A stretch of 64,000 nt of DNA. It comes from a bacterium. GTDB taxonomy: Bacteria; Hydrothermota; UBA3073; JACQXS01; JAQTXJ01. How positions within the stretch are numbered: the stretch's first letter is position 1; every line of letters begins with the position of its first letter. Under the pieces are notes generated by a model. The model was not told the origin of the DNA, ran no database searches, and worked only from the letters and a program-made list of their open reading frames with translations. A program made the position numbers and the translations under genes. The stretch covers positions 12,225-76,224 of the forward strand of contig JBAZNK010000006.1 in assembly GCA_041649255.1 (NCBI GenBank). Direction: 5' to 3'. Positions 11,918-41,600 of this stretch are shown in pieces.

Positions 11918-14900
11918 CTACTTCATCAAAATCAATTTCTTTGTCTCTTTGTATTCACCAGCATTGAATTTCGCAAAGTAAATACCCGTTGGATAGTTCT
12001 TTGATTCAAGCGTTTCTTTGTAATAGCCGGGCAATCTTTCTCCTTCTACAAGAGTTTTTACGCATCGTCCTGTAAGGTCGTAGAGTTTCAAAGATACTTT
12101 GCTTGTTTTCGGTAGTGAATATTGAATCGTCGTTTTGTTCCTAAATGGATTTGGATAATTCTGATAGAGTTTGAAAACAAGCGGTTTAGAGATAGTTCCT
12201 TGTGGTCCGCCGCTTCCAAGTTCGCCTCTGCAAATCTTTCCATCTCCACCATCTGTAGCATTATCGGGGCCTACCCCATGAGTTACCAAAACATTTCCCG
12301 TAAAAGTCTCTACATTTCTTATAAGCGCAATTCTTCCACCAGCCGAGCCACCACCGTCTGCCTGTGTATTATTTGCTCCGTCATTTCCATTTGCCTCTAT
12401 GTTTCCTTCTCCTTTTAATGAATCACAGCTTATAAAAATTGAGCCACCGCTTCCAGCACCACCTGCATACCCGCTTGAATATTTATATCCAGCTTCTCCA
12501 TTTGCTGAAACTATTCCATCAATCGTTATCACATTTGCTGAAAGTTTTAATCTTCCTCCACCGGAACCTCCCGGGGCTACTGTATAGTTATCCCCAAAGC
12601 CTCCGCCTGAACCAAGAGATGTAGGATTAAGAGAATCTGCTTCACCATAAGCAACTCCACCTGATATTCCGCTTTCTCCGTTTCCACCTGTATTTCCATA
12701 CCCAGCTCCGCCGGCACCCGCTCCATTTACGCCGTTTGTGCCCTTGCCGGTTCCGTTTGATGTTAAGTAACCTTTTTTATCTGCACTTATTACTGCTCCT
12801 GAACTGACAGTTATCTCATTTGCCGTAATAGAAGCATTGCCTAATAGGGAATCTCCGGAATCAAGCTGGAATTTCACATTACTGAAATTCGCTCCATTAA
12901 CAAATGAAAGCCTGTCATGTGAACCTATTATCGTATTAACCGGAGAAACAAGCAATTCCACGCTTCCATTGGATTGAACTACTTTTATTATCCCGCTCTG
13001 TCCATCTTGTGCTCTATCAGGATATATTGATCCTGCTCCAACTCCTCCGTTTGCTAATAACTTTCCGCTAAAAGATGAATTTCTGTAATTAATTCTTAAA
13101 TAACCTGCGCCACCACCGCCACCTTGGGCTGTGCTTCTATATGCGCCATCTCCTCCATTTGTTTCCGCGATTCCGCTTCCAGAAATAGAATCACAGATTA
13201 TATAAATTGACCCTGCTCCACCGCCACCACCGGCATAAGATGAGCCACCTGCTTCTCCGTCTGTTCCATTCGATTCTATTTTTCCTGAAAGTGTTAATGT
13301 GGCTGTTGAGAGTTTAATTCTTCCTCCACCTGCTCCACCCCAAGCCGAATAAGAGCTGCCATTTCCACCACCACAGCCAAGGTAAGACATTGGAGAAAGA
13401 GTATCTGAATAAGCAACTCCACCCGATATTTCCGTTTCTCCTAAACCGCCTTGCCCACAGCATGCTCCACCGCCTGCTCCCGCGCCATTTGTACCATTTG
13501 AGCCTTTTCCCGGTCCGCTGGCTTTTGGATTCCCTTTGCCTGTAGAGCTTAAAGTGCCTAATAGTTGCATTGTTTGAGCTTCTACGTCTATGATACCGGT
13601 AGTAGAGTCAGTGCCATTGAATGCAACACTATTCATCGTAGCACCTGAATTTATCTTAAATAAACCGATATTGTAATGTCTGCCTGAAACGAGTCTTGTG
13701 CTGTCGGTCGTCCAAACCCAGTCAGCTCCGCCATGATTCGTTCCGCCAAGTCCTACACTTAACTGGAAGTGACGCACTCCGCCTGCTCCGGAGTTATAAA
13801 CATAGTTCGGATTAGTACGTAAGTTCTGTGTAGCCCCATTTCCAAGATCAAGCAAATATATGCCGTATCCCGAAGGCACATCGGACGGTAAAATGTTAAG
13901 TGTTATATTTTCGTTTGATTTATCCGTATTGACTTCAAAATTCCATACCATTGTGGAATCCGTAAGGTCAAGTGTTTTCCTGACATCCTGACAGAATTTA
14001 TCTCCCAATGGATGATTCCATTCGGAATGCGGGAAATAAAGATATACATAATTAGAAGGTGGAATGGAATATTTTGGAATATCATATCCTTCATCACAGC
14101 TGTCGGAAGCTTCTCCAATTACGCCTGCATAATTAGAAGTATCATTACCGAAACTTGCCGTGGCTTTGACTTGCACTTTCCAATCAAGAGGTAGAATAGT
14201 TTTTATCGGCATAAAAGTAATAGGACCTGAAACAGTACTTGCTATAGTAGCCGAGTCATTAATTCCCCAGTAGTTATTTTGAGTTAATATATTGTCTCCA
14301 GCTTGATTTAAAAAGTTCCATGTTGCGTTGCTATAGATGCTATTATTTCCCGGAGTATACTCTGCGCTTTGACAATTTATGTTCCCAAAGTTGAACCCTA
14401 TAGCTGAATTAGTGGATACCCCGATGTCATTAGCTATTATTGTATTCTCTCTTCCCATTAGGGAAGAATTTTCTGCTTTTATACCTGTTTCATTGTGATG
14501 TATTGTGTTTCCCCATAATTCTCCATGAGGAGCATTTGAGTACAATATCCCTGCTTCATTACAGTCTTTTATTTCAAAACCACAGATAGAAATATAAGAT
14601 TTTCCATTTACATTAAATCCATAGTCTCGAGAATTGTCACCAGTAATTACTACTCTTTCTCCCGGAACTGCAATATATGCAATAATACCACTATCAGGAT
14701 AACCTGAATTATAAGGTGTTATTGTTTCGTGGTATACGCCTTCTCTGACGGCAACTGCTTCGTCGGCTTTTAATACACTAGCAGCTTTTTGAATAGTTGC
14801 AAAAGGTTGTCCCTCAGTGCCTGGGTTCATATCACTGCCATTTGTACAATCTGCATAATACAACTTTTTATATTTAGAAACAGTTTTTTTAAGACTCCAT

Positions 14901-17900
14901 GGTCCCATTTGTCCTGACCTATGCATTGCACAGACAAAGAAAGTAATGTCCTGATGGAAAGGATTTTTTTCTAAATATTCATACCATGTCCTTTGAATTG
15001 GAGCGAATGATTGAAGATAATAATTTGCAGTTGCTTTTTGTCCCACCATTCTTCCTATAGGACAAACCCAATAGCCACCAAGATAGGGTTCGTAAGCAGA
15101 AGAACTTGCCCCAGTGAATGGTATCGGATCCCATACAAGACGGTAAATTTTTTGATTCGGAGATGTAAGAGTTTGGGATTGCCCTTTAAGGTTTGTTACT
15201 CGAGGAGGAATGGCATTATTTACAGCTAGAGTTGTGTTATAATTGGAAAAATCCGAAGGCATATCGTCACAGAGATCAGAAGGATTATTATCGTCAACCG
15301 CACGAATTCTATAAAAATAAGTCCTTCCAATTTCACCTGTCTTATCTTTATAATATACCGATCCTCCTGTCCCAGAGAGTTCATCAATATATTCAAATGG
15401 GCCATTTTGACTTATCTCTGAACGATAAATCCAATATTTCATGCTTGCTGTAGTTTGCCATGTTAAAACATCTTTACTTTCTTCCCCATGCTCACCTAAT
15501 GCAACTAAAAACATCGGTACGTTTGGGGCAGGAACAGATACCCAGGGAAGATTATAGGGAGTAGCTTTAAACGCACGCGTTTCAAGTACTGGCCTTCTTA
15601 ATAGTGATACTGAGTTGTCTTTCCAAACGATTTTAATTTTATAGTAGTAAGGTGTATCCCAAATTACCTTATCGTCCAAATAGGTATAATAATTATAGTT
15701 AGGTTCAGCATTTGATGGAGTGATATTATTTGTTAAACAATGGTAAGGGCCTTCTTCGCATACGCTGCGCCACACTTCATAATGGTCTATAATATCACTT
15801 GCACCACTACTTATATCCAACCAAGATTCTTTTTCAGTAATCCAACTTATTCTGACTTTTTGATCGTCACTGAAAACAAAGACCTTTCCTAAGGAAGGAG
15901 CGTAGTATCTACCAAGAAGTGTTCCTGTCTCGTAAGATCCGGCAGGAACCGGGTGTCTCCCTCCAGCCCAGGACATCCAACCTATATTTCCTTTACAATA
16001 TATGCTATAAAGGTCATCATTCTTCAGAAAATATTCCCGAGTTGGACCTTCAGCATTATAAATAACATCGGATGTTCCGACATAAAATCGTCTTCCCTCT
16101 ATCCCCAGATTTTCATGCCAAACATTCATAATCCATGTCGGGAACATTGCTCTTCCTGAAATAATTTCATCTATATTTTCTTTAGCCCATGATGGAGAAC
16201 TGTATTTTCCTACGCTTCCCGTAGATATTCCTATCCAAGAAGTAGCAGGGTCATTTTCTTTCCCTGAAATTCCGAAGTTTGCATGCCTTACATCATACCA
16301 TTCTACAGGAGTTCCGTTCCCAAAATCCCAGTCAGCGACACTCCATCCATCCGGATGAGAAGGCTCTTCATTCTCAAAAAGTGTCCATGCATTTGTTGCA
16401 TCCATTCTATTCCAAGTCGCTCCTCCATCTGTTGTTCGGGCAATGCCGGTATTTTTCGTTGTCATTGTCTCATCTCTTCCTTGATTGTCCATAGTTACCC
16501 AAACATACTGATAATTAGCTTTGTCAACCCATATGCTTCTGACACAGTCGGAAAGGGTTTTTATATCCCCATTTATTGCATAAGGGACAGGTTGTTGTAC
16601 TGCTGCCCACGTAGCTCCTCCTAAATTACTTCCGTTGTTTGTTTTTAAAACATACCCTTCAGAAGCCCCTATATATCCATTATTTACATCTGCGAAATCT
16701 ACACAGAAAAATGTAAGATTGTATGGAATCGATGAAGACACAAGGGATGTTGAGTTTATACAATCCCATGAGGAGCCACCATTCAAACTTCGCAATATAA
16801 TTCCTCTAGGTTGGGAAGAAATAGCTCCATACGCTTCATTCACACTTACTTGTTTATTTACTCCGACGATAAATATGGTGTTATTTGGAGAATTAGGTAT
16901 TTCACACACTCCTTGGAAATCCCAATCAGCTGGATTGATACCAGCAGAACTTAAAGAGGATGATTTGTCAGACCATGAAAAATCCGTATTCCTTCCAAGC
17001 ACCAATCCGTTATCTCCTACTGCCCAGTGTCCATTAACAGACCTTACAATTTGGTTCGTATTAATAGGTGCCTGTTGGTCAAACCAACCATATCTGGATA
17101 AAGTATCAAATGAAACTTGCGTAAGCCAGGTATTGTGATATTCCCATGATTTAGGCTCAAGTTTTGGTACACCAAGGTCATTATTAATATTGGATATGTG
17201 GTAACTATAGCAGGAGAATTGATCTCTACAAGATGCCCAACTTGACGAAGTTAGTATATCAACTCCTGTATTGTTAGAAATTGCCACTATCTCTGCATGT
17301 CCATCATTATTTATATCAGCTACAGCAGGATGTTCCCATCCAGTTCGAGATGTGAAAGTATTATCAATGATATCCATCCCCCCAGTGCCTCCCCTTATAA
17401 CATCATAGGCATATAAAGCATTAGTCCCTTCCCATATTATCTCCTTTATGCCATCTTTATCAATATCGCAAATAACAGGAGCAGGGGCCGAACCAGTCGT
17501 TCCATCAATTACATTTACTTGACGATATATAGTTGGTTGAACAGAAGGTCCGTTATCCCGAAGAACAAAGAGCATATCTTCCATATTATCAAAACTTGTA
17601 TTTGAAAATACTACAATTTCAGGTTTACTTTGATCATCTGCTTCATTTAAGTCGGCAATAGCCACCATAGACATGGTTTCCGCAGAATTTGTGCCTGAGG
17701 GGGTATGTATAAACCTCCATCTTTCTCGTAAGCTTGATAGTCCTGTATTCCATTCAAGACAATATAATACATTTTCATCTCCACCATGTACACCATCTGA
17801 CACTAAAATTTCAGGTTTTAAGTCACCATCAACGTCAGCTATTGCTACAGCTCCCATCATAGGAGTCGGTAAAACTGCCATCCACGTATGTTTCTGACCT

Positions 17901-18541
17901 CCAGAACCATTGAGACAATATACCGTACGACCACTCCCAAATATTATTTCCATGTCTCCATCTTCATCAATATCTGCAACTGCAGGAGATGTTGCATGTG
18001 TGGTAGTTGGAAATACCCAATCTTGTTGCAAGCTGTTAGTGCCATCCCAAGAAGCACAATGCAACCCATTATTTCCTCCTGCTAAAACTTTTGGGAAAAT
18101 ATCGCCGTTACTTACATAAGCAACCGTTAATCCCCCCCGTGCATAATTTTGTCCAGTCGGGATTGAATTCCCTAATTGTGCTAAAGTATTATCTAGACAA
18201 TAAATTCCTGCGTTAGTAGTATTGCCAGAACTGTTAAATAAAACTTCCGGAACATTATCATTGTTTATATCTGCTATTACTGGATGAAGAGGCTCATTGC
18301 CATTAGGTTCCCCGAATGCATACAGTAATGTACCTGTACTACTAAGACAATAAATAAAAGAATTTGAATTACCTATAACGATTTCTGAACCAGGTCCTAC
18401 GTTTGTTAAATCACTCACTGCTGGCGAACAAAGAAAAGTGTTTCCCGCCGCATTAAATGGCCATACTCCAAAACTATCTCCAACCATAAACCCCAACATT
18501 CCCACTATTACAACTACTTGCTTCAATAATCTCATCTCCAC
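11918..18541 (-). CDS. Giant secreted multidomain protein of 2207 aa. It has FG-GAP repeats, a pectate-lyase-like parallel beta-helix, FN3-like regions, two Gly-rich solenoid-like modules and a T9SS C-terminal sorting domain.
   Basis: FG-GAP: ADINNDNVPEVLF, ADIDEDGDMEIIFGSG, ADVDGDLKPEILVSDG, CDIDKDGIKEIIWEG, ADINNDGHAEIVAIS. Beta-helix: FATIQKAASVLKADEAVAVREGVYHE...GFEIKDCNEAGILYSN...NTIHHNETGIKAE. Two ~150-aa Gly-rich modules (GGGRIKLS...GGGGGAGSIYIICDS...; GGGRLKLSAN...GGAGSGGSIFISCDS...). CTD NYPNPFRNKTTIQY...IYFAKFNAGEYKETKKLILMK. Confidence 0.85.
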   Translation of the reverse strand: MEMRLLKQVVVIVGMLGFMVGDSFGVWPFNAAGNTFLCSPAVSDLTNVGPGSEIVIGNSNSFIYCLSSTGTLLYAFGEPNGNEPLHPVIADINNDNVPEVLFNSSGNTTNAGIYCLDNTLAQLGNSIPTGQNYARGGLTVAYVSNGDIFPKVLAGGNNGLHCASWDGTNSLQQDWVFPTTTHATSPAVADIDEDGDMEIIFGSGRTVYCLNGSGGQKHTWMAVLPTPMMGAVAIADVDGDLKPEILVSDGVHGGDENVLYCLEWNTGLSSLRERWRFIHTPSGTNSAETMSMVAIADLNEADDQSKPEIVVFSNTSFDNMEDMLFVLRDNGPSVQPTIYRQVNVIDGTTGSAPAPVICDIDKDGIKEIIWEGTNALYAYDVIRGGTGGMDIIDNTFTSRTGWEHPAVADINNDGHAEIVAISNNTGVDILTSSSWASCRDQFSCYSYHISNINNDLGVPKLEPKSWEYHNTWLTQVSFDTLSRYGWFDQQAPINTNQIVRSVNGHWAVGDNGLVLGRNTDFSWSDKSSSLSSAGINPADWDFQGVCEIPNSPNNTIFIVGVNKQVSVNEAYGAISSQPRGIILRSLNGGSSWDCINSTSLVSSSIPYNLTFFCVDFADVNNGYIGASEGYVLKTNNGSNLGGATWAAVQQPVPYAINGDIKTLSDCVRSIWVDKANYQYVWVTMDNQGRDETMTTKNTGIARTTDGGATWNRMDATNAWTLFENEEPSHPDGWSVADWDFGNGTPVEWYDVRHANFGISGKENDPATSWIGISTGSVGKYSSPSWAKENIDEIISGRAMFPTWIMNVWHENLGIEGRRFYVGTSDVIYNAEGPTREYFLKNDDLYSIYCKGNIGWMSWAGGRHPVPAGSYETGTLLGRYYAPSLGKVFVFSDDQKVRISWITEKESWLDISSGASDIIDHYEVWRSVCEEGPYHCLTNNITPSNAEPNYNYYTYLDDKVIWDTPYYYKIKIVWKDNSVSLLRRPVLETRAFKATPYNLPWVSVPAPNVPMFLVALGEHGEESKDVLTWQTTASMKYWIYRSEISQNGPFEYIDELSGTGGSVYYKDKTGEIGRTYFYRIRAVDDNNPSDLCDDMPSDFSNYNTTLAVNNAIPPRVTNLKGQSQTLTSPNQKIYRLVWDPIPFTGASSSAYEPYLGGYWVCPIGRMVGQKATANYYLQSFAPIQRTWYEYLEKNPFHQDITFFVCAMHRSGQMGPWSLKKTVSKYKKLYYADCTNGSDMNPGTEGQPFATIQKAASVLKADEAVAVREGVYHETITPYNSGYPDSGIIAYIAVPGERVVITGDNSRDYGFNVNGKSYISICGFEIKDCNEAGILYSNAPHGELWGNTIHHNETGIKAENSSLMGRENTIIANDIGVSTNSAIGFNFGNINCQSAEYTPGNNSIYSNATWNFLNQAGDNILTQNNYWGINDSATIASTVSGPITFMPIKTILPLDWKVQVKATASFGNDTSNYAGVIGEASDSCDEGYDIPKYSIPPSNYVYLYFPHSEWNHPLGDKFCQDVRKTLDLTDSTMVWNFEVNTDKSNENITLNILPSDVPSGYGIYLLDLGNGATQNLRTNPNYVYNSGAGGVRHFQLSVGLGGTNHGGADWVWTTDSTRLVSGRHYNIGLFKINSGATMNSVAFNGTDSTTGIIDVEAQTMQLLGTLSSTGKGNPKASGPGKGSNGTNGAGAGGGACCGQGGLGETEISGGVAYSDTLSPMSYLGCGGGNGSSYSAWGGAGGGRIKLSTATLTLSGKIESNGTDGEAGGSSYAGGGGGAGSIYIICDSISGSGIAETNGGDGAYRSTAQGGGGGAGYLRINYRNSSFSGKLLANGGVGAGSIYPDRAQDGQSGIIKVVQSNGSVELLVSPVNTIIGSHDRLSFVNGANFSNVKFQLDSGDSLLGNASITANEITVSSGAVISADKKGYLTSNGTGKGTNGVNGAGAGGAGYGNTGGNGESGISGGVAYGEADSLNPTSLGSGGGFGDNYTVAPGGSGGGRLKLSANVITIDGIVSANGEAGYKYSSGYAGGAGSGGSIFISCDSLKGEGNIEANGNDGANNTQADGGGSAGGRIALIRNVETFTGNVLVTHGVGPDNATDGGDGKICRGELGSGGPQGTISKPLVFKLYQNYPNPFRNKTTIQYSLPKTSKVSLKLYDLTGRCVKTLVEGERLPGYYKETLESKNYPTGIYFAKFNAGEYKETKKLILMK

Positions 18542-18677
18542 CTCCTTTGCCCTAAAAAGAGCAATTTACTTTTCAAAAAAGTTCTAATTAATAAAATCAT
18601 TCTATAAATCAATGATTAAATAAAATATTATATTAAGAATTTGAGTTTATTCCCCCTATCTGTCAATAAAATTTCAT

Positions 18678-18752
18678 GTGCAAATATCTATATTTATGGA
18701 CATTTATCTATATTTATTTGCAAATATCTATGTGGGGAATTTTTCGAAGCGT
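18678..18752 (-). promoter_or_regulatory. Conserved upstream element, family 1, copy 2 (full length).
   Basis: gtgcaaatatctatatttatggacatttatctatatttatttgcaaatatctatgtggggaatttttcgaagcg. It lies ~135 nt upstream of the start of the giant gene (18541). Confidence 0.55.
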
Positions 18753-18804
18753 TAGCGGACAGTGGTAATTAAAAAAAATAGGGGGTGTTGATTTTTACAA
18801 TCCC

Positions 18805-18856: not shown

Positions 18857-18932
18857 ATATTATGCTATTCGCAGTTTGAATAATGTGTGTTTGTGTAAAC
18901 TTGCTATAATAAAAATCCTTTTTCTATATGTG

Positions 18933-20645: not shown

Positions 20646-20920
20646 CTTACCTCCTATCTTGCAAATACGAAGCAAGTTGATACGAATATCACATACCGTA
20701 TCTCTACAATTATAATAAATTCAGATTATATATATTAGTAATTTTTATTTATAATATATTTTTAACAAAAATGAAGAGATTTTATTCATATTAAAATATC
20801 GATGAGAAATGTCAAGACATCTTTATGCTTAAAATTAAATTTAATTTGTATATTTAGATAAACAAGAATAAAAGGATTTTTATTCTGTTCTTTTTTCGCC
20901 ACAATTCTTTTAAGAATTAT

Positions 20921-20951: not shown

Positions 20952-20957
20952 ATTCGC

Positions 20958-32046: not shown

Positions 32047-35000
32047 CTATTCCAAAAGAATAGTTTTTTTAACGTTTTTAAAATCACCTGCCTCAAAAAA
32101 TAGAAAATATACTCCCGATGCAATATTTTTTGCGTTCCATTTCACTGTGTAGTATCCCGGCGCTTGCTCTTTATCCATTAAACTCATTACCAGCCTTCCT
32201 GATAAGTCGTATAATTTTATTTTTACTTTACTCTTTTGAGGAATTTGATATCTAATATTGGTAATTTTGGAGAAGGGATTTGGATGATTTCCCAAAAACT
32301 TAAATACAAGAGGACGAACCGTACTATCTTCTGTCCCTACTTCAAAAATACGGAATGACCTGATTTCTTCACTCCATCTAAATGCATCTGTTGTATCATA
32401 TGCCAGTACTCTCCAATAATAAGTTCCTTTAGATAACGATGTAGTTATTTGATAATTTTCAGTAGATACGGAATCATAGATTACTGTAGCCGTATCACTA
32501 AAAACTGAATCCCTACTTATATGCAAAGCAAAGAGGAAGGGGTCGCTATTGGGGTCATCCGTGTTTTCCCAGGAAAAATCAGGCGTGTATGTAGAAAGAG
32601 TCTCGCCATCTGCCGGAGAAAGAAGTGAAAACTGATTTGGGGCGCTGAGCAACCATGCAAGAGACCTGTTCAAGAGTTTCTTCTTATCCCAATCATTTTC
32701 AATGTCCTCAATTCCGAAAGAGAGAAATATTCGTCTTGATGAGTTTACCTCTATGCTTAGACCGGCATGTATAGACTTAGCCTGGAATTCTATACCTTTG
32801 TCGTGCCGTCCGGGCATCTTCATGTTGGAGAATTCCTTGTTAATAAAGGGCGAATTGATAAGTGTAGTCGAATAAGTTTTCATTGATTTTTGAGCACTTG
32901 GTTGAGGAATATTGCCATCTTTCTTTGAATCATACCACAGAATCGAACTGGCAGGACTTGAATAGCTAAGCGTTTGATATGCCTGCCCGGAGATTAACCC
33001 AAGGGTAAGTCCATCACTAATGGGGTCACTACTATAGCCACTGATCTTGGTGTAGCCAATGGTGGAACTACTATATCCCGCACCCAGATAATCGCTAATA
33101 AAATCACTACTTTTTATGTCCTCGGCAATATCATGCCCGGTTATAAGAAGTTTTCCACTACCATCCAGATAACTACTAAGTGAGTCGAATACTGAGTACA
33201 TAACGCTGTTTGGACCACTCCACCAGATAACAGCATCATACGGTTTATAACTCAAGTTCCATGGTTCACCTCTGTAAGAGCAATCATATGCTCCATAGGA
33301 ATATCCGGCAAATGGCTGTTTTATGACTTCGCGTCCAAGGTCGTCAAGAACCAAAAGAAGTCCGGATGTTGGCAGAGGCACAGTCGTGAATCTACCAATA
33401 TCCGAAGTGTCCAATCCATTGCCGATGGAATCAAGAGCTTTCAGATTTATCTTGTAATTCTTGCTCGCAAGCTTCGTTCCCCAGAAGTTCCCGTAAACCA
33501 TGTCGTTAGATAAACTGTCGTTATGCATACCATCGTCATATAATTGCGCCGAATCAACTATCGTACTAATATCGCCATCCTCAAAATAGATAGTCATATT
33601 TTTGATTCCACTTCCTTCTAAAAGCCTTACATTGAATCCAAGCGTATCTCCAGGGTTGAGAGACCTCTTTGATAGTCGGTACGGATAAAACTGGATTCTG
33701 GGAGGCGTATCATCAATTATTACAATGTTAAAAGTATTCTCCCAAATGTTAGTGCCTGCATCAAAAATTGTTAAATCAACCGGAATTACTTTGTCGTGAG
33801 GGCATAACTTATTAATATTATTAATATAGAAAGAATAAGAAGGGCTAACTACCGTAGAATCAGCAAGTATAGTGCCAAAATTAACCGTATCGTTCTTAAC
33901 GGAAATATACGGACTGGAAGTTCGTATACTTGCCATTACATTATTACAATTAACCGGACCTACATTTTTTAAGGCAATAGTAAATGGAAGATAGTTGTCT
34001 CCGGGAGAAGGTATAGTGTCTGTGCCTTGGAACTTAAAAACTTCAAACTTAACCCATGGTTCATTTATGGTTGTAAACCAGATACTGTTGTTTACCGTAT
34101 TTGTGTCTGACTTTGCATCTATAGCAATAATGTCCACAAGATATCTATAAGGAGTAGGAGAGAGTGTTGTCCAGCTATTCCCATAGATTCCATCCCCGGC
34201 TGTTGAATCGTTATGTGCGCCGTCATCGTATAAAGTTAGTGAAGCCCGAATTGTTTCATCCGGAGATTCAATCTCTGCTATTACTTTTCCTATACCATCT
34301 TCATCCCAAACATTTGCCCTTATAACCACGGTCTCCCCGGGATTACACCATCCGGGAGTAACTTTTGTACAGCTTACTATGGGGATAAGACTGGGAACGA
34401 AGTCATATACACCTGTATTCCACGCATCATGCCGCCACTTTCCCCATTCTGCCATACCTGTGTTGTTTCCTATATCCCAAGCGAGAATGTAATCTTTTAT
34501 GCCAAGGATAATTTCCATGTCACTATCTTTATCCAAATCCGCCACAGCAAGCGGAGGATGGTCTCCAGTTGGTTTATTTAGAGGAAACCCATTCACCAAT
34601 GAGCCATCGGTATTAAATGCAAATAGCTTGTCCTTTGATGAACTAGCCAATATTTCCGGCTTTGAATCCCCACCTATATCCGCGATGATTGGAGAAATAA
34701 GCGTAGAATCGCCCACAGGGAAATTGGGATAGATGTTGCCATCAGATTTTATAGTATAAAGCACTCCTTGATTCGTAGTAAGTGCAATTTCTGGATTTCC
34801 GTTGCCATCAAAATCTCCAAGAGTAACTTCAAAGTGGATAGTATTTGTGTCCCCGGGAGTAACTTGAACCGGGAATCCACTCAAAAGAGTCCCATTATAT
34901 TTCCATGCAAATACACTGTCCCCGTATGCAATTACTTCTAAAGAATCATCTCCATTAATATCCCCTAATGCAGGGACGCTCCGAGAACGGTATCCACAAA

Positions 35001-38000
35001 CATGTTTGGACCAACCGGATAAGAGATTGCCATCATAGCTATATGCATATACCTTGCTTCCCGACGCAGAAGTTGTTTGAATTATTATCTCCATTTTGCC
35101 GTCACCGGTTAAATCACCAACACATGGAGGGGCAAATATATTTTCTCCGATTGATTGTGGCCAGCCCGAAATTATCTGTCCACTTGAGGAGTATATAGAT
35201 ATCTCTCCTCCTCCGGTAATAATAATTTCCAATAATCCATCATTCTGGATATCGGAAATAGCGATATAATCTCCCGTTATTACCGGCCATAATATTAGCG
35301 GGATTCCTTTGTGGTCAAAAGCATATATCTCCCCCCCGGTCGCTACAAAAATTTCCAAATCACCGTCTCTATCTATATCAACTATACATGAAGAATTAAT
35401 ATCTCCACTTTGTGATATATTCCTATCCCAGAAAGAACCATCCATAGAGGATACACAGAGTCGGCTTGCCCAATCATTGAGCAAGCTGTCATAATAACTG
35501 ACAAATCCTACAATATCCAAGTCGCCATCTTTATCAAGGTCAATGACCTGGAGATTAGATTTAAGCGCGCTCCACATACCCGTACCGGGAAAAAATTGTC
35601 CGTTAATTTTCTTTGGGAATCCTACCAAAAACAGAGAGTCAATCCCAATTGTGGAGTAACCCGTATGTTCATAATTTGCAGTAAACTCTCTCACTCTTAT
35701 TGTATAATATCCTTGCCCTGTTATACTTGCTAAATCTAAGGTAGCAAGAACACCGTCTTTCACGGGAGTGGATGATGAAACAAGGGTATCCCAGAAAACA
35801 GGTTGTTTACCTTTTCCGTATTCTACGACATAATGGTTAAATGTAGTTGATGAAGCATTACCTATGATATTTATACTCTTATCATTACGGAAGAATTCGT
35901 ATTCTGCCGGGGATGTAATGTATGCATTGTCAATTTCAACAACAATTCTCTCATCTACCGAAGACTTTCCGGTTGAGTCTAACACTACCAGTTTCAAGGT
36001 AACTGTCGTATCCGGCAGTAAACTTGAATCCAGAGTATCAAGAATCCCGGATGTAACCGGGGTATATGAAATGTCACCTATGGCAAACCATTGGGTTGGC
36101 TCAACACCCACGCCGTATTCAAAATGATAAGACGCAAACGTAGCCCCGGAAGCACCACCTTTTGTAGCACTTCCCTTTACCGTAAAAAAACCACACAGGG
36201 TATCATGGAAATCAGGAGAACTAATGTCGGCAATAGGCGCTTCATACTCTGTGATAATAGGAGTTTCCGGGTCACCTAATAAATTTATTGTGAAATAACA
36301 CCACCTCATAGTACCGGTTGCTCCAATAGAGGAGACTAAATCGTTTTTTGCATCGTTAAGTCCGGCTCCTATATTTTTTATACCTTCAGTAAATACTGCA
36401 TCAAGAAATTCTCTATCAAATGCTTCTCCAGGTCCTTCTCCTTTACCCGACATATACCAACCCACTCTTGTATTTCCTATATATGCAAACGCACCTCCCT
36501 GAGCAAAAATAAAATGCTCTGCAACTGCGTCGCTATAGTCAAAAGCAGCTGTAACACATCCCTGGGAGTAAAGCAAAAAGTATTCCGTATTTGTAAGGGC
36601 ATCAATAGTTGAGCCATCTAACTTCATAACTATGCTTGAATTTGCATGTCCAAGGTGATTAATTATATGCGGTCCCTGATTTAAATGTCCCAGGATATCG
36701 TTGAACGTGCCATCTCTTTCATATAATCGCGTTATACTGAATTGAGGAAGTAAATAAGCAACAGAATCTTTTTTATCGCATCCCCATGTATATACATCTA
36801 AAGATTCACCCACAAACAGCGCCTTATTCAAATGCTCCATATCAAGGGAATTCTCATAATGAAGCACTTTCTTGATATAATTTCCTGCTTCTGCAGGAGT
36901 ATTTACAGTAATTCTACCAACTGCAACCTCAGCCAGAAAATCCGCTTCTTCTCCTGAAGTACCGGTGCCCCCATTTGCTGAGTTTCCTTCCCCGTATACT
37001 TTGTCTCCATCTGTATCCCAATTGCCGTCTAATCCGGCATAATACAAATCGCTTGCCATTGTTGAATCCATATATGGTATGGAACCATCCGTTGCCCATG
37101 CAAACAAACCTCTTACAGGCACTATTTCAACATCCCCTCCGAGAGTTACCCATTTAAGCGGATGAGCTGTACTTCCCCATGTCTGATAACAATCAATTAT
37201 AAAATTCCTTAGCTTTTCCTGGTTATCACTTCCGGAATAATTCGCATATATTGAATCTGTTGTAAATATTTTTGCTTGTAACCCTCTTGAAATCTTCCAG
37301 TTTGTGAGAAGCTGAAAAGTATCTTTTAACCCGGAACCAGTTATTAATATATAATCATACGGATTTGATTGTGAAACAAGAGAAGATTTTGAAGTGTGTA
37401 CAGATTTTGATGTTTGTGAATAAGAAGTAATTGTATTCTTATTGTCTACCATAGCGCTTATTCTATTTAAAATACGATTGTCCCGGAAAATCATTAATTC
37501 CTGCTCTTTTTGGACTTTAAAATCAGGTGAAGTAATAACTTCTATTGTTATTCTTTTATAATAAAATATTTTTCCCTCTTTAGGAATATACCGAACGGGA
37601 TAAAATTTCGTATTTAATATATCAAAACCATTCAACCTATTAGTCATATAAGGTGACAGTGATTCGCCGGGGTATGGAGTTGATTGATTATATATTACAA
37701 GATTTTTTGATGGTTTTTTGTTTATTTTTTGTGATGTAGGGAATATTGGAGCGCCCGGTTGAATATTATAATACCCCTCAAGTGTTTCAGCTTCATAAGG
37801 AATAAAATTAATATTTGTAACCCGTTCACCAAAAGGAATTAGTATTTCTATAGGTCTCACAGGTAAAACTGGCTTTCCGGGTTCAGGCAAATCTTTCAGC
37901 CCCTGGATGTTAACACAGTCATAACTTGTCTGATGATTTTTGTAAACAGTGGGTTTTTGAAATTCATACTCAACCCTGATAACTTCTCCGTGCGCTTTTA

Positions 38001-38040
38001 TAGATAAGAGAATCAACATTAAGAAAACAGTCTTTTTCAT
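32047..38040 (-). CDS. Giant secreted protein of 1997 aa. It has an N-terminal peptidase C25 (gingipain-like) domain, multiple FG-GAP repeats, Ig-like regions and a T9SS C-terminal sorting domain.
   Basis: C25-like: YDYILITGSGLKDTFQLLTNWKISRGLQAKIF...IINHLGHANSSIVMKL. FG-GAP: IDLDKDGDLDIVGF, VDIDRDGDLEIFVATGG, DIQNDGLLEIIITGGG, GDLTGDGKMEIIIQ, GDINGDDSLEVIAYG, GDFDGNGNPEIALT, ADIGGDSKPEILAS, ADLDKDSDMEIILG. CTD GNHPNPFSKITNIRYQIP...GVYFLFFEAGDFKNVKKTILLE. Confidence 0.8.
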   Translation of the reverse strand: MKKTVFLMLILLSIKAHGEVIRVEYEFQKPTVYKNHQTSYDCVNIQGLKDLPEPGKPVLPVRPIEILIPFGERVTNINFIPYEAETLEGYYNIQPGAPIFPTSQKINKKPSKNLVIYNQSTPYPGESLSPYMTNRLNGFDILNTKFYPVRYIPKEGKIFYYKRITIEVITSPDFKVQKEQELMIFRDNRILNRISAMVDNKNTITSYSQTSKSVHTSKSSLVSQSNPYDYILITGSGLKDTFQLLTNWKISRGLQAKIFTTDSIYANYSGSDNQEKLRNFIIDCYQTWGSTAHPLKWVTLGGDVEIVPVRGLFAWATDGSIPYMDSTMASDLYYAGLDGNWDTDGDKVYGEGNSANGGTGTSGEEADFLAEVAVGRITVNTPAEAGNYIKKVLHYENSLDMEHLNKALFVGESLDVYTWGCDKKDSVAYLLPQFSITRLYERDGTFNDILGHLNQGPHIINHLGHANSSIVMKLDGSTIDALTNTEYFLLYSQGCVTAAFDYSDAVAEHFIFAQGGAFAYIGNTRVGWYMSGKGEGPGEAFDREFLDAVFTEGIKNIGAGLNDAKNDLVSSIGATGTMRWCYFTINLLGDPETPIITEYEAPIADISSPDFHDTLCGFFTVKGSATKGGASGATFASYHFEYGVGVEPTQWFAIGDISYTPVTSGILDTLDSSLLPDTTVTLKLVVLDSTGKSSVDERIVVEIDNAYITSPAEYEFFRNDKSINIIGNASSTTFNHYVVEYGKGKQPVFWDTLVSSSTPVKDGVLATLDLASITGQGYYTIRVREFTANYEHTGYSTIGIDSLFLVGFPKKINGQFFPGTGMWSALKSNLQVIDLDKDGDLDIVGFVSYYDSLLNDWASRLCVSSMDGSFWDRNISQSGDINSSCIVDIDRDGDLEIFVATGGEIYAFDHKGIPLILWPVITGDYIAISDIQNDGLLEIIITGGGEISIYSSSGQIISGWPQSIGENIFAPPCVGDLTGDGKMEIIIQTTSASGSKVYAYSYDGNLLSGWSKHVCGYRSRSVPALGDINGDDSLEVIAYGDSVFAWKYNGTLLSGFPVQVTPGDTNTIHFEVTLGDFDGNGNPEIALTTNQGVLYTIKSDGNIYPNFPVGDSTLISPIIADIGGDSKPEILASSSKDKLFAFNTDGSLVNGFPLNKPTGDHPPLAVADLDKDSDMEIILGIKDYILAWDIGNNTGMAEWGKWRHDAWNTGVYDFVPSLIPIVSCTKVTPGWCNPGETVVIRANVWDEDGIGKVIAEIESPDETIRASLTLYDDGAHNDSTAGDGIYGNSWTTLSPTPYRYLVDIIAIDAKSDTNTVNNSIWFTTINEPWVKFEVFKFQGTDTIPSPGDNYLPFTIALKNVGPVNCNNVMASIRTSSPYISVKNDTVNFGTILADSTVVSPSYSFYINNINKLCPHDKVIPVDLTIFDAGTNIWENTFNIVIIDDTPPRIQFYPYRLSKRSLNPGDTLGFNVRLLEGSGIKNMTIYFEDGDISTIVDSAQLYDDGMHNDSLSNDMVYGNFWGTKLASKNYKINLKALDSIGNGLDTSDIGRFTTVPLPTSGLLLVLDDLGREVIKQPFAGYSYGAYDCSYRGEPWNLSYKPYDAVIWWSGPNSVMYSVFDSLSSYLDGSGKLLITGHDIAEDIKSSDFISDYLGAGYSSSTIGYTKISGYSSDPISDGLTLGLISGQAYQTLSYSSPASSILWYDSKKDGNIPQPSAQKSMKTYSTTLINSPFINKEFSNMKMPGRHDKGIEFQAKSIHAGLSIEVNSSRRIFLSFGIEDIENDWDKKKLLNRSLAWLLSAPNQFSLLSPADGETLSTYTPDFSWENTDDPNSDPFLFALHISRDSVFSDTATVIYDSVSTENYQITTSLSKGTYYWRVLAYDTTDAFRWSEEIRSFRIFEVGTEDSTVRPLVFKFLGNHPNPFSKITNIRYQIPQKSKVKIKLYDLSGRLVMSLMDKEQAPGYYTVKWNAKNIASGVYFLFFEAGDFKNVKKTILLE

Positions 38041-38108
38041 TCCATCCCCCTATTTTTTTATTCCTTAGAATAATATAATACTATAACTTAAACTTGAAAC
38101 TAAAACTG

Positions 38109-38552: not shown

Positions 38553-38603
38553 GTTTTTCTGCGATGTTCTTTAAACTCTGTATTTTATATAAGTACCAAC
38601 GAT

Positions 38604-38636
38604 AGAAGCCCTTCCAGAAAATTCCAGAAGGGCTTC
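38604..38636. terminator. Hairpin between the giant GH gene's stop and the sigma-like ORF; possibly a bidirectional terminator.
   Basis: agaagcccttc ... gaagggcttc stem with loop cagaaaattcca. The plus-strand side is followed by gtatctgttttaaaattttttt; the U-tract on the minus-strand side is weak. Confidence 0.35.
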
Positions 38637-38656
38637 GTATCTGTTTTAAAATTTTT

Positions 38657-41600
38657 TTATTTCATCAATATGAGTTTCTTTGTCTCCTTATAGTCGCCCG
38701 CTTTGAACTTCGCAAAGTAAATACCCGTTGGATAGTCTTTTGAGTTGAGTTCTGCTTTGTAATATCCCGGTATTTGTTCTTCGTTGACTAATGCCTTTAC
38801 ACACCTCCCGGTTAAATCATAAAGTCTTAATGATACTTTACTTGTTGTTGGTATTGAGTATTGAATTATTGTCCTGTTTTTGAATGGATTCGGATAATTC
38901 TGGTATAGTTTGAATACCAAAGGTTTTCCGGTTTTATCCATATATGATGCAGGGGTATAACCATCAGGAATCGTATCTGAAAAAATAATACCCACCGTTC
39001 CATCTGTTGCTGTCCCGCCCCCCTTCGTTCCTTCTGTTACTAAAATCGTTCCTGTAAAGTTATTAGTGTCTCGATAAACCGTTACTATTCCTCCTGAACC
39101 TCCACCACCATAGCAGTTTGAGATTGCTCCTCCAGTCCCTCCGATTGCATTTATGTTTCCCGTGCCTGCAAGAATTTTAGCATAAATTAATATGCTTCCC
39201 CCGGATGCGCCTCCTCCGGCATACGAAGTTTTGGATATACCTGAAGAGCCGTTTGCAGAAAGACTTCCGTTTAACAGTATTTTTCCACTTTCACAACTTA
39301 AGATTATCCTGCCTCCACCTGAACCTCCACCCCACCAATATCCACTTGTTGTCCCCCAGTCTCCTCCTCCCGAACCTAAAATATTGGGATTCAGCGTGTC
39401 ATCATACGTTGCTCCGTGATCTCCCGTGCCTCCGGGAGTATAGTAGTTACCGTGTCCTCCAAAAGTAAAATGCGATGCTCCACCGCCTGCGTGCATCGAG
39501 CTTCCCGCGTGTCCTGCTCCCTCTCCGGTATTATGACCATATCCCTTGGAATTTGCTAAAATGTATGAATTTGAATTAATTATCAAACTATCCACTGGTG
39601 AAAGTTCTACGTTGCCGACTATAGAATCATTTGCAGTCAACCTTATCCAGTTATCTGCGAGTTCTACCCCTTTAATAAACCCTTCTTTACTGTTAGAATT
39701 TGTTGCTGTGTTTACAGGCGATAATAGTGCTATAGTTCTATCTTGCGTCCGGACTAAAATCGTTCCCGGCTGGCCGTCACAGGCATTGTAAAAACCGTCT
39801 CCTCCACTGGCGTCAAGCCTTCCCGCCCAATTTGAATTTTTATATTGTATAAAAATCCTGCCCGCTCCGCCGCCACCGCCATCCGTGTAAGCAGGACTGG
39901 AAGAGTGAGCTCCGTCTCCACCTTTCACACTTATTACTCCATTCCCCGATAATGAATCCGTTTCTATAGATATGCCACCGCCAGAGCCTCCTCCGCCAAC
40001 TTTTCCATCGCTTCCTGTCCCGAATCCTCCATTGGAACGGAGACTTCCGGATATATTTATATTTCCAGAGCACATCAGTTTTATTGCCGCTCCGCCTTTT
40101 CCACCTTTTCCCCAGAGCGTAACATCTGAATTCCCACCCCCGGAACCACGTTCCCATGTTGTATTGTCTCCATAAACATACCCGCCATACTGTGTCGTAT
40201 CGTAAACGTTATTTCCGCCGTGTCCACCTCTACCCCCAAATCCAGCTCCTGATGAGCCGTGCGAGACTGAACCTCGTACTCCTGCACCCGGTCCATTTTC
40301 TGCGTCATATCCTGCGGAATCCCCGCTAAATGTGCCTGCTATACTTATTGATTTTGCATGTATTATTACATCTCCGTATTCTGAGCCATTCCAGGGTTTA
40401 ACTTTCATTGTAACCCCTGAGCCTATGCTGAAACTGCCCAAATTCCACTGTCCCCCTGAAACTTCTCTTGTACTGTCAGCAGTCCACGTCCAGTTATCTC
40501 CTTTATAATCCTTACCCGTGCAAATGGAAAATACGGAATCGCTCATATCCGAAGCACTGTGCCCGGCAGGGTCATACGCTATCGCTTTTATCTTATAAGC
40601 ATCAAAAGTTGAGTCAATGGCATCCGTAATGTTAAAATCTATTTCAAAAGTATCTCCCATTATATGCGGGAAAACTGTTTTTATACAGGTATCCGACATC
40701 CCTGTTTTCGTTAACCATATTTGCAATGATTCAACCGCTACACTGTCTTCAGCTCTTATTTTAACCTGATAGGTATCGCCTATTGCCAGATATTCGCCGC
40801 CATTCGGATATATAATACTGATTTCAGGAGGCAATGTATCTACCAATAACCTTAAGTTGTCAAACCATGCCTGTCCTTTGAAAGACATATCTCCAAACAA
40901 ACCTATCCGGAGAGTATCGAATCTATTTGAGTTCCAGCCATTATAAGAATATGTCCAATCCATACTATCACCTGTATATTTATCAGTATGGAAAGTATCT
41001 CCGACACTCCATACACCGATTCCAACTCCTACAGCACCTGCTTCGGGCTGAACTTTTTGCCACCATGTAAGCCAATATGTTGTGCTATCATTACAGGGAA
41101 TATTGTTTTGATAAAATCCTGGCCAATCGTCTAACGTATCGCTATGTATGTAAGCGCAGGAATCTCCATGTTGGACATTATTGGCAGAAGCTTCCAGAGT
41201 TGCTTTGCCCCTTAGCTCCCAGCAAATAACGCCTTCTTCAAAATCGGGATTGAATATCCATTCGTCAGTCGCTGTAAATACCTGAGATATGGCATAACCC
41301 ATATTGTCTAGGCTATCCCACGCTTTTACTTTTATCCTATAGTCTCCTTTGCTAACATTGACAGTCCAGTTATATAAAGTATCCTGCGAAGATACCTGTC
41401 CTGACCCGATTTGTGAAACATCTGCTCCCGCAGTATCCGCAAGCCACACCTGTTGGGAAGTAACGCCGTTATTAGATAAAACAATCCATTTAATCGACAT
41501 ATTATAGCCGATTCTCCATTTATGGCACTTATTATCGTATTCCTGAGGTGAAGTGATAGCAACTTTTGGAGGAGCAATATTTTTAGGACTAAACGTAATA

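What the first reader, a model, noticed from the sequence alone, without database searches (positions are those of the whole stretch)
12400..40350. Two giant T9SS cargo paralogs share a duplicated glycine-rich module plus the CTD, while their N-terminal passenger domains differ
The 2207-aa protein (11918..18541) and the 1864-aa protein (38657..44251) have different N-terminal enzymatic or adhesive parts: a pectate-lyase-like beta-helix with FG-GAP repeats in one, a GH-A glycosidase with BNR repeats in the other. They share a C-terminal ~450-aa cassette. The cassette is two tandem ~150-aa Gly-rich units with the periodicity GGGxGGGR(I/L)xLS...NG..G...GG.GGAGGSIxIxCDSLxGxGxIxAxGGxG...GGGGxGGRIxL..., followed by a near-identical T9SS CTD. 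The CTDs are ~80% identical at the DNA level across 11918-12200 versus 38657-38950. The Gly-rich unit matches no named domain I can recognise; it may be a beta-solenoid stalk or a cell-surface attachment module. The shared cassette suggests exchange by recombination among cargo genes.
Basis: seen in the sequence. Interest (0 to 1): 0.6.

Follow-up and report, generated by a model that had tools for sequence, protein, structure and literature searches.

The report
Shared glycine-rich cassette in secreted proteins
Two giant secreted surface proteins of an uncultured anaerobic bacterium carry the same C-terminal block, two copies of an uncatalogued glycine-rich beta-solenoid domain plus a type IX secretion signal, and this block stays stable while the working ends in front of it are swapped by recombination.

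Summary
Protein A (11918-18541, minus strand, 2207 aa) and protein B (38657-44251, minus strand, 1864 aa) share only their last ~610-630 aa (44% identity, E 5e-90). That block is two tandem glycine-rich units followed by a type-A T9SS C-terminal domain (CTD).

Three figures need correcting:
- The units are ~255-275 aa, not ~150 aa.
- The glycine-rich part totals ~520 aa.
- The CTDs are 72-74% identical in DNA (80-81% in protein), not ~80% in DNA.

The unit is not low complexity. An HMM built only from foreign homologues scores the window units 116-155 bits, against at most -12 bits for shuffles. It has a 34-36-residue coil periodicity and folds confidently in AlphaFold2 (pLDDT 87) as a beta-solenoid. 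It matches no Pfam family and no solved structure.

It belongs to a very large unannotated family: 9,713 cluster representatives, with up to 11 tandem units per protein.

A and B diverged long ago; their synonymous sites are saturated. Comparison with a congeneric genome shows that the cassette and CTD evolve at the genome baseline, whereas the passenger has been replaced by a divergent allele.

Most likely this is a conserved stalk-plus-sorting module for surface display. It is a new member of a known kind and of moderate interest.

The parts
11918..18541 (-). Gene A, 2207-aa T9SS cargo protein (GTG start; signal-peptide-like N-terminus)
   Evidence: ORF list and translation. Ortholog is P0129 / MDD5528694.1 in GCA_028716385.1, 57% identity over 2178 aa.
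11921..12184 (-). A: type-A T9SS C-terminal sorting domain (aa 2120-2207)
   Evidence: PF18962 46 bits (cut-off 27) and TIGR04183 40.8 bits (cut-off 23). 80-81% aa identity to the CTD of B, against 23-52% to the seven other CTDs compared in the window.
12185..12961 (-). A: glycine-rich beta-solenoid unit 2 (aa 1861-2119)
   Evidence: Unit HMM, independent E 1.6e-104. 154.6 bits against the HMM built from foreign units. AF2 pLDDT above 90 over most of the unit.
12962..13744 (-). A: glycine-rich beta-solenoid unit 1 (aa 1600-1860)
   Evidence: Unit HMM, independent E 6.3e-90. 115.6 bits against the foreign-unit HMM. AF2 model.
13745..14281 (-). A: pre-cassette block (aa 1421-1599). Not shared with B, but co-conserved with the cassette between congeners.
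   Evidence: 91% aa identity and 0.64 four-fold-site identity to P0129. Identity falls off upstream of about aa 1450.
14294..14842 (-). A passenger: DUF1565 / Pel9A-like right-handed beta-helix (aa ~1234-1416)
   Evidence: PF07602 E 5.8e-9, PF22842 E 4.1e-5, PF13229 E 2e-3.
17252..18541 (-). A passenger: signal peptide plus FG-GAP-like repeat region (aa 1-430)
   Evidence: PF13517 E 9.8e-19 and PF01839 E 1e-4. Only 32% aa identity to the congener's ortholog, with saturated synonymous sites.
38657..44251 (-). Gene B, 1864-aa T9SS cargo protein
   Evidence: ORF list and translation. Identical to P0124 = GenBank MFA5032472.1, 'MAG: T9SS type A sorting domain-containing protein [bacterium]', on a 146,504-bp contig.
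38660..38926 (-). B: type-A T9SS C-terminal sorting domain (aa 1776-1864)
   Evidence: PF18962 43.2 bits and TIGR04183 44.6 bits.
38927..39751 (-). B: glycine-rich beta-solenoid unit 2 (aa 1501-1775)
   Evidence: Unit HMM, independent E 2.9e-106. 127.6 bits against the foreign-unit HMM. Stand-alone AF2 model with pLDDT 86.9, pTM 0.86.
39752..40516 (-). B: glycine-rich beta-solenoid unit 1 (aa 1246-1500)
   Evidence: Unit HMM, independent E 2.7e-89. 133.5 bits against the foreign-unit HMM.
40703..40828 (-). B: Big_7 bacterial Ig domain just upstream of the cassette (aa 1142-1183)
   Evidence: PF17957, E 1.2e-5 to 2.3e-5.
42344..42565 (-). B passenger: BNR/sialidase-like propeller segment (aa ~563-636; weak)
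   Evidence: PF13088 BNR_2, E 4.9e-6, 26.5 bits, below the cut-off of 31.4. SxDxGxTW-type motifs are visible in the translation.
43337..43903 (-). B passenger: GH39-like (clan GH-A) glycoside hydrolase segment (aa 117-305)
   Evidence: PF01229, E 6.1e-8, 32.3 bits, above the cut-off of 26.

Best explanation
**What the cassette is**
- It consists of two tandem ~260-aa domains followed directly by a type-A T9SS CTD.
- The domains belong to a large, uncatalogued family of extracellular glycine-rich beta-solenoid repeats.
- Each unit has three parts: a short hydrophobic beta-strand cap; a ~75-residue glycine-rich segment containing the motifs G.GY..(4-5 residues)..GPG and YG...P...GSGGG; and then three to four regular ~34-36-residue coils of the form GG.GGG-(I/L).(I/L)...G.(I/L).A.G.

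**How it most likely works (inferred)**
1. The protein crosses the inner membrane through its N-terminal signal peptide.
2. The CTD directs it through the T9SS.
3. The CTD is removed by a PorU-type sortase and the new C-terminus is linked to lipopolysaccharide.
4. The two rigid solenoids then form the cell-proximal stalk. This stalk holds the variable passenger away from the outer membrane. The passenger is GH39-like/BNR in B and FG-GAP plus a pectate-lyase-like beta-helix in A.

**Evolution**
- Cassette plus CTD is a stable display platform inherited vertically.
- Passengers in front of it are replaced by recombination, with junctions at or just upstream of the cassette.
- A and B carry two old cassette lineages (A-type and B-type).

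**Shown vs inferred**
- Shown: homology, domain boundaries, family size, predicted fold, the CTD match, and the mosaic divergence pattern.
- Inferred: secretion, CTD cleavage, LPS anchoring and the stalk role.
For: **Anatomy and homology**
- The shared block and its sharp boundary.
- Four units are mutually alignable, with 49 invariant columns.
- The units score 116-155 bits against an independent HMM, against at most -12 bits for shuffles.
- The coil period is 34-36 residues.

**Fold**
- AF2 gives pLDDT 86.8 for the two-unit model and 86.9 for unit B2 alone. Both show paired strands recurring every ~36 residues.
- The best, non-significant, Foldseek neighbours are beta-helix proteins: EtpA, HMW1, Ag43, ice-binding protein, LpxD, PfbA and pectate lyase.

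**Extracellular structural role**
- The family has 9,713 cluster representatives at E<=1e-3 and 1,782 at E<=1e-30.
- The 150 top-scoring representatives, a list that favours proteins with many units, mostly carry 4-8 tandem units (up to 11). Units cover a median 75% of the protein.
- C-terminal partners are surface anchors or extracellular domains: dockerin, Ig, LamG, T9SS CTD.
- Among family-wide conserved non-Gly residues there is no conserved catalytic set. They are only R, S, Y, P, A, I and T.

**Recurring architecture**
- 'Passenger + 2 units + CTD' recurs in P0129, P0175, P0183, P0238 and L085_1813.
- P0002 is little more than two units and a CTD, with no Pfam-recognised passenger.

**Platform stability**
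- A vs P0129: cassette 93% aa, CTD 90%, four-fold-site identity 0.68.
- Housekeeping baseline: 0.73, with ~90% nt identity.
- Passenger: 32-61% aa, four-fold-site identity 0.40.

**Mechanism from the literature**
- The CTD is cleaved and A-LPS is attached by PorU/PorZ (PMC8545088).
- A CTD is sufficient for LPS-dependent anchoring of fusion proteins in Cytophaga hutchinsonii (PMC12860637).
- The stalk concept for fibrillar adhesins comes from PMC9210967.
Against: - No experiment or expression data exist. T9SS core genes were not seen in the window and could not be searched in the genome.
- I could not inspect model coordinates. Handedness, coil count and the nature of the ~75-residue high-confidence segment without DSSP strands are therefore unknown.
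- In most family members the units make up most of the protein, with no separate 'head'. This suggests the unit may have an activity of its own, such as adhesion.
- Near-invariant Arg (99%), Ser (98%), Tyr (94%) and Pro (92%) are more than a passive spacer obviously needs.
- The recombination inference rests on one congeneric genome plus one metagenomic short variant.
- Bootstrap support for 'unit duplication predates the A/B split' is only 47-49%.
Confidence: 0.55

Rival explanations
1. The solenoid units are themselves the functional surface. They would be an adhesin or ligand-binding module (glycan, mineral, ice, or self-association as in Ag43) rather than a passive stalk. In A and B they would add a binding function next to the enzyme or adhesive passenger.
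For: - In the 150 top-scoring representatives, units cover a median 75% of the protein. These proteins usually start with units right after the signal peptide, with no separate head.
- Near-invariant R, S, Y and P positions exist.
- The weak profile link to the N-terminal domain of AgmC, named by NCBI as an adventurous gliding motility protein.
- The nearest fold-class neighbours include adhesins: EtpA, HMW1, Ag43 and PfbA.
Against: - No significant structural or sequence match to any characterised adhesin. All Foldseek E-values are >=0.08.
- Conserved residues could be purely structural, for example ladders or turn-closing residues.
- Only two units are present here, placed next to the anchor, which is the stalk position.
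Confidence: 0.25
2. The cassette is needed for export or folding. It would act as an intramolecular chaperone or an extended T9SS recognition element that works together with this particular CTD subtype.
For: - The CTDs of cassette-bearing proteins form their own tight subtype: 71-99% identity among themselves, against 23-52% to other CTDs in the same window.
- Cassette and CTD are always contiguous and are inherited as one block.
Against: - In studied systems a CTD alone is sufficient to export and anchor heterologous proteins (PMC12860637).
- The same unit family is used with dockerins, LamG and other C-termini, and in organisms without T9SS CTDs.
- A natural short form keeps only one unit plus the CTD (P0001).
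Confidence: 0.1
3. The similarity between A and B is glycine-rich low complexity, or a disordered linker, rather than a folded homologous domain.
For: The units are 22-27% glycine. Pfam and PDB sequence searches find nothing.
Against: - The foreign-unit HMM scores 116-155 bits, against at most -12 bits for 800 shuffles in total.
- 12 non-Gly positions are conserved in at least 70% of units across 171 foreign units.
- Positional correspondence: A1 matches B1 at 81-89 bits and A2 matches B2 at 77-81 bits. The cross pairs score lower: A1-B2 32 bits and A2-B1 23-40 bits.
- AF2 gives pLDDT >=90 for 364 of 521 residues.
Confidence: 0.02
4. A and B share the cassette because of a recent gene conversion or cassette swap between the two genes within this genome.
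For: The CTDs are 80-81% identical in protein, much closer than any other CTD pair in the window. A 28-nt exact match exists in the CTD.
Against: - Four-fold synonymous sites are at saturation: 0.34 in the units and 0.41 in the CTD, with chance at ~0.32.
- Unit DNA identity is 49%.
- The A-type and B-type cassettes form separate clades that each include sequences from other genomes.
Confidence: 0.02

Closest known systems
[quoted passage not shown] Porphyromonas gingivalis gingipain RgpB)
   Same: N-terminal signal peptide, a variable functional passenger, and a C-terminal PF18962/TIGR04183 sorting domain. In studied species that domain is cleaved and replaced by an LPS anchor (PMC8545088, PMC12860637). 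Both A and B pass the curated CTD thresholds.
   Different: In RgpB the CTD is preceded by a small Ig-like domain (my recollection, not tested here). In A and B it is preceded by ~520 aa of glycine-rich beta-solenoid. No T9SS machinery was examined in this genome.
Stalk domains of fibrillar adhesins (concept of Monzon et al., PMC9210967)
   Same: A tandemly repeated, structurally rigid domain lies between the cell anchor and the functional tip. The same unit is amplified up to 11 times in relatives.
   Different: I recall typical stalk domains as mostly Ig-like or other small beta-sandwich folds. This one is a ~260-aa solenoid absent from Pfam. Only two copies are present here. The stalk function is untested.
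Beta-helical passengers of autotransporters and two-partner-secretion exoproteins (Ag43, HMW1, EtpA)
   Same: Same broad fold class. These are the top, non-significant, Foldseek hits (E 0.08-1.1). They are extracellular and elongated.
   Different: No sequence homology. TM-scores are <=0.3. The secretion pathway and topology differ: the C-terminus is anchored through a CTD rather than a beta-barrel.
NCBIfam NF047640, N-terminal domain of the adventurous gliding motility protein AgmC (Myxococcus)
   Same: All four window units hit the same part of the model (positions ~230-402 of 412), which is the coil region. E-values run from 9e-8 to 8e-3.
   Different: Scores are 15-31 bits against a cut-off of 275. 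Only part of the model matches. No paper on AgmC could be found in the library.
RTX beta-roll and PE_PGRS glycine-rich repeats (GGxGxD nonapeptides)
   Same: Glycine-rich turns alternate with short beta-strands in a parallel solenoid (PMC3034196, PMC5054227).
   Different: The period is 34-36 residues rather than 9. There is no conserved Asp for calcium. No Pfam hit of any kind on the units.
Uncharacterised giant-virus proteins in BFVD (Bathycoccus virus 'PA14 domain-containing protein', Ostreococcus virus, Orpheovirus and Pandoravirus 'collagen-like' proteins)
   Same: Significant Foldseek matches to one unit: E 5e-8 to 4e-4, probability 1.0, 18-25% identity over 240-330 columns.
   Different: These are predicted structures only, of unknown function, and in a different architectural context.

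Membership tests
T9SS type-A C-terminal sorting domain (Pfam PF18962 / TIGR04183) | C-terminal ~70-90 aa domain scoring above the curated thresholds | tested here: met
   A scores 46.0 bits and B 43.2 bits (Pfam cut-off 27). A scores 40.8 and B 44.6 bits (TIGR04183 cut-off 23). The domain lies at the extreme C-terminus in both.
T9SS cargo (functional) | Genome encodes T9SS core components (SprA, PorV, PorU, PorZ etc.), and the protein is exported and its CTD cleaved | not testable with these tools
   Only 64 kb is available. The PorU/PorZ hits on the 175-aa ORF 23678-24205 fall in its C-terminal sorting-domain region. At least 10 CTD-bearing genes in the window make a T9SS likely.
Any Pfam-A family covering the glycine-rich unit (including Beta_helix PF13229, Chlam_PMP PF02415, HemolysinCabind, Gly_rich PF12810) | hmmscan match of the isolated unit | tested here: not met
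   Zero families for all four units even at E<=10. Multi-unit relatives show only terminal-domain hits.
NCBIfam NF047640 gliding_AgmC_N | Score >= 275 bits over the 412-position model | tested here: not met
   15-31 bits, covering only positions ~230-402. This points to a shared sub-domain, not membership.
Solved-structure families (PDB) | Significant sequence-profile or Foldseek match | tested here: not met
Beta-solenoid / parallel beta-helix fold class | Regular coils of constant length, each contributing short parallel strands; periodic sequence profile | tested here: inconclusive
   AF2 strand pairs recur every 33-38 residues with pLDDT above 90. The autocorrelation peak is at lag 34 and 67-68. 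Neighbours in Foldseek are beta-helices, but not significantly so. Coordinates could not be inspected.
Fibrillar-adhesin-type stalk domain | Tandemly repeated domain located between the anchor and the functional domain, projecting the latter from the cell | tested here: inconclusive
   The position (directly before the CTD) and tandem repetition (2 here, up to 11 in relatives) are met. The projection function is not testable.
RTX / beta-roll calcium-binding repeats | Tandem nonapeptides GGxGxDxUx with Asp at position 6 | tested here: not met
   No such Pfam hit. The period is 34-36. No conserved Asp among family-wide conserved positions.

The most novel reading that the evidence does not exclude
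The ~260-aa unit could be a previously undescribed solenoid type. Its ~75-residue glycine-rich segment is confidently predicted yet has no regular beta-strands. That segment might be a polyglycine-like lattice packed against the coils. Together with the near-invariant Arg/Ser/Tyr/Pro, it would form a conserved ligand-binding or self-association site. The cassette would then be an active attachment device, for example binding LPS, exopolysaccharide or a partner surface, and not merely a spacer. It would be reused across bacteria, archaea-like MAGs and giant viruses. In this lineage it would serve as a fixed platform onto which passengers are grafted by recombination.
Probability: 0.2. Interest if true: 0.65.

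Novelty: new member of a known kind. Interest (0 to 1): 0.4.

Why it matters
- The unit defines a very large domain family: about 10,000 50%-identity clusters, with proteins up to 6,562 aa. No Pfam model or solved structure covers it. A model of it would annotate a sizeable slice of 'hypothetical' giant surface proteins in Planctomycetota, Verrucomicrobiota, Bdellovibrio, candidate phyla and giant viruses.
- For T9SS biology, it gives a clear natural example of a conserved 'stalk + CTD' display platform with exchangeable passengers. This is relevant to how cargo repertoires diversify and to engineering surface display.
- It is not a new kind of system. Modular surface proteins with repeat stalks and recombining heads are well known.

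Tried and rejected
**Domain and structure look-ups that found nothing useful**
- Pfam, NCBIfam and PHROGs on isolated units. Only a weak partial AgmC_N match and phrog_13336 (unknown function) turned up.
- PDB sequence-profile search and Foldseek against PDB with both models gave no significant match.

**Collection scans**
- The scan with the cassette plus CTD was swamped by the CTD motif YQNYPNPF. It returned only 32-52%-identical matches, mostly CTDs of Ignavibacteria and Bacteroidota, so no species-level relative exists in the GTDB representatives.
- A metagenome scan without the CTD found only the P0001 locus.
- An exact-sequence look-up of protein A found nothing.

**An interpretation I held and then rejected**
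- I first took the C-terminal block of A/P0129 to be a recently transferred cassette.
- That rested on a single 57%-identical response-regulator pair as the genome baseline.
- The syntenic housekeeping block showed that the two genomes are ~90% identical in DNA. The cassette is therefore at baseline and the passenger is the outlier.

**Resemblances considered and dropped**
- ALK-type glycine-rich domain, phage gp38 polyglycine sandwich, and RTX beta-roll. No sequence-profile or fold match supports any of them.
- The 'knotted solenoid' paper and the Flavobacterium antifreeze-like protein paper are unrelated.

**Literature**
- Searches for AgmC and for descriptions of this repeat found nothing.

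Full report
**1. The observation**

The window carries two long minus-strand ORFs, A (11918-18541, 2207 aa) and B (38657-44251, 1864 aa).

BLASTP aligns only their C-terminal parts. A 1600-2207 matches B 1246-1864 at 44% identity, E 5e-90. In a protein-guided codon alignment, identity rises from 0.08 to 0.43 at A ~1591 / B ~1235, so the boundary is sharp.

Both proteins end in a type-A T9SS sorting domain above the curated thresholds.

- A has FG-GAP repeats and a DUF1565/Pel9A-like beta-helix.
- B has a GH39-like segment, a weak BNR_2 match and a Big_7 Ig domain.

Three details needed correction:
- The repeat unit is ~255-275 aa, not ~150 aa.
- The glycine-rich part totals ~520 aa, followed by an 88-aa CTD.
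- The CTDs are 72-74% identical in DNA and 80-81% in protein.

**2. A real domain, not composition**

- The four units align with 49 invariant columns.
- An HMM built from 171 units of other organisms scores the window units 116-155 bits. Two hundred shuffles of each unit never exceed -12 bits.
- Across those foreign units, 42 Gly columns are conserved in at least 80% of units. Twelve non-Gly positions are conserved in at least 70%, including Arg 99%, Ser 98%, Tyr 94% and Pro 92%.
- Gly and hydrophobic profiles autocorrelate at lag 34 and 67-68. The GG.GGG-I.I coil motifs in the window units are spaced 34-40 residues apart.
- Inside the window only A and B carry the unit.

**3. Fold**

- AlphaFold2 on the 521-aa A cassette, with 120 homologues, gives pLDDT 86.8 and pTM 0.75. 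Unit B2 alone gives 86.9 and 0.86.
- Each unit shows N-terminal strands, then ~75 confidently placed residues with almost no DSSP strands, then strand pairs recurring every 33-38 residues.
- The inter-unit junction has low confidence.
- Foldseek finds no significant PDB match (best E 0.077 and 2.8). The top hits are all beta-helix proteins: EtpA, HMW1, Ag43, an ice-binding protein, LpxD, PfbA and pectate lyase.
- In BFVD, several giant-virus proteins match one unit significantly, with E down to 5e-8.

**4. The family**

- Pfam gives nothing for the units even at E<=10. The PDB sequence-profile search finds nothing.
- NCBIfam gives only a partial, far sub-threshold match of all four units to the coil part of the AgmC N-terminal model.
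- A profile of the four units finds 9,713 cluster representatives at E<=1e-3, 5,427 at <=1e-10 and 1,782 at <=1e-30. Proteins reach 6,562 aa and 11 units.
- The 150 top-scoring representatives, a list that favours proteins with many units, mostly carry 4-8 units. Units cover a median 75% of the protein.
- C-terminal partners are dockerins, Ig and LamG domains. Only 6 of these 150 carry a T9SS CTD.
- Named hosts include Planctomycetota, Verrucomicrobia, Bdellovibrio, candidate phyla and archaeal MAGs.
- In some relatives a G8-like cap precedes the first unit.

**5. The cassette as an architecture**

- 'Passenger + two units + CTD' recurs in P0129, P0175, P0183, P0238 and the 1813-aa gene next to P0129.
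- P0002 is little more than two units and a CTD, with no Pfam-recognised passenger.
- There are two cassette lineages. A-type comprises A, P0129 and P0001. B-type comprises B, P0175, P0181, P0183, P0187, L085_1813 and P0238.
- Identity is 39-50% between types and 47-93% within the B-type.
- Unit 1 copies group together and unit 2 copies group together in a neighbour-joining tree. This fits a duplication older than the A/B split, but bootstrap support is only 47-49%.
- The CTDs of cassette proteins form a tight subtype of 71-99% identity. They are only 23-52% identical to other CTDs in the window.

**6. Recombination**

A and B themselves are old paralogues:
- Four-fold synonymous sites are 0.34 identical in the units and 0.41 in the CTD, with chance at ~0.32.
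- The longest shared exact DNA stretch is 28 nt.

The informative comparison is with GCA_028716385.1:
- A syntenic housekeeping block is 88-91% identical in DNA.
- Eight housekeeping genes are 91-97% identical in protein, with pooled four-fold-site identity 0.726.
- Against that baseline, A vs its ortholog P0129 is at baseline from about aa 1421 to the end. There the protein identity is 90-93% and four-fold identity 0.68 (p=0.087).
- The first 1420 aa are 32-61% identical with saturated synonymous sites (0.40, p=8e-19).
- The passenger has therefore been replaced by a divergent homologous allele, while the cassette and CTD stayed vertical.

Two further cases point the same way:
- Within GCA_028716385.1, two paralogues show a break at the cassette start. 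Four-fold identity is 0.37 before it and 0.62 after it (p=2e-6).
- A metagenomic 535-aa variant, P0001, appears in three assemblies. It joins an A-like signal peptide and a divergent ~140-aa N-terminus directly to the end of unit 1, then unit 2 and the CTD, at 91% DNA identity.

An earlier reading of mine, that the cassette itself was recently transferred, rested on a non-orthologous response-regulator pair and was dropped.

**7. Mechanism**

Established T9SS biology is this: CTD-dependent export, CTD cleavage, and LPS attachment by PorU/PorZ (PMC8545088). CTD-dependent LPS anchoring of fusions has been shown in Cytophaga (PMC12860637).

On that basis the domain just before the CTD ends up nearest the outer membrane. 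I therefore consider the pair of solenoids most likely a cell-proximal stalk and display platform (confidence ~0.55).

The main rival is that the units are themselves adhesive or ligand-binding (~0.25). Two observations favour it: unit-only giant relatives, and the near-invariant R/S/Y/P positions. An export-helper role is less likely (~0.1). Low complexity and recent A-B conversion are effectively refuted.

**8. Verdict**

- The unit is an uncatalogued but very widespread beta-solenoid repeat domain. The cassette is a conserved stalk-plus-sorting module.
- This is a new member of a known kind, of moderate interest (0.4).

Noticed in passing
window 20958-23612 (-): An 884-aa protein with 18% Gly and ~50-aa internal repeats (YGGYFEGKGSGTG.K.G). 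It has no Pfam or PDB match. There is a weak NCBIfam hit to the N-terminus of Bdellovibrio 'mosaic adhesive trimer' fibre proteins (E 3e-4, aa 52-115). Its C-terminal ~130 aa match phrog_17490, of unknown function (E 8e-10). It may be a trimeric fibre or tail-fibre-like protein sitting among the T9SS cargo genes.
   Followed up: partly
window ~1700-47600: A dense island of T9SS cargo genes. At least 10 minus-strand genes carry a type-A CTD: 1735-3867, 10195-11769, A, 18933-20675, 23678-24205, 28414-32034, the C25 peptidase 32047-38040, B, 44248-45912 and 45923-47587. Synteny with the congener GCA_028716385.1 (~90% DNA identity) stops at window ~47,946, so the island is variable between close relatives.
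   Followed up: partly
L001-L003, L087 (P0001); matches window 11918-13040 and 18468-18705: A natural 535-aa short form of an A-like gene. Upstream region and signal peptide are 85% identical in DNA to A. The ~140-aa N-terminus is 41% identical. It is fused at 'GGNDG|AGSIYPD' to the tail of unit 1, then unit 2 and the CTD at 91% DNA identity. The same contig appears in ENA, JGI and Logan assemblies. I did not establish whether these derive from independent samples, so an assembly chimera is unlikely but not excluded.
   Followed up: partly
window 54882-56643: Two genes (a 254-aa ORF and a fumarylacetoacetate-hydrolase-family protein) interrupt an otherwise collinear housekeeping block. They are absent at that position in the congener locus L088.
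   Followed up: no
window 44248-44251 and 45912-45923: The stop codon region of ORF 44248-45912 overlaps the start of gene B by 4 nt, suggesting translational coupling. This ORF and its neighbour 45923-47587 are tandem 554-aa paralogues, each with a CTD-like C-terminal end (CTD regions 35% identical).
   Followed up: no
BFVD hits to model md31a44ce063c: Proteins of giant viruses match one unit significantly, at E 5e-8 to 4e-4 and 18-25% identity. The hits are Bathycoccus and Ostreococcus prasinoviruses, Orpheovirus, and Pandoravirus 'collagen-like' proteins. A mussel protein labelled 'Tenascin-X' (P0068) also appeared among sequence hits.
   Followed up: no
unit consensus positions 92, 98, 103, 189 (e.g. 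A aa ~1965-2070): Near-invariant non-glycine residues occur across 171 foreign units: Tyr 94%, Pro 92%, Ser 98% (in GSGGG) and Arg 99% (in GGGGGGRIA). A ~75-residue segment is also predicted with high confidence but has no DSSP strands. Both features are unexplained if the domain is only a spacer.
   Followed up: partly
window 32047-38040 (-) and L088 11869-15870: A 1997-aa C25 (gingipain-family) peptidase with propeptide, FG-GAP repeats and a T9SS CTD. The congener has a 1333-aa C25 peptidase next to the housekeeping block, with no CTD recorded in its precomputed Pfam hits.
   Followed up: no
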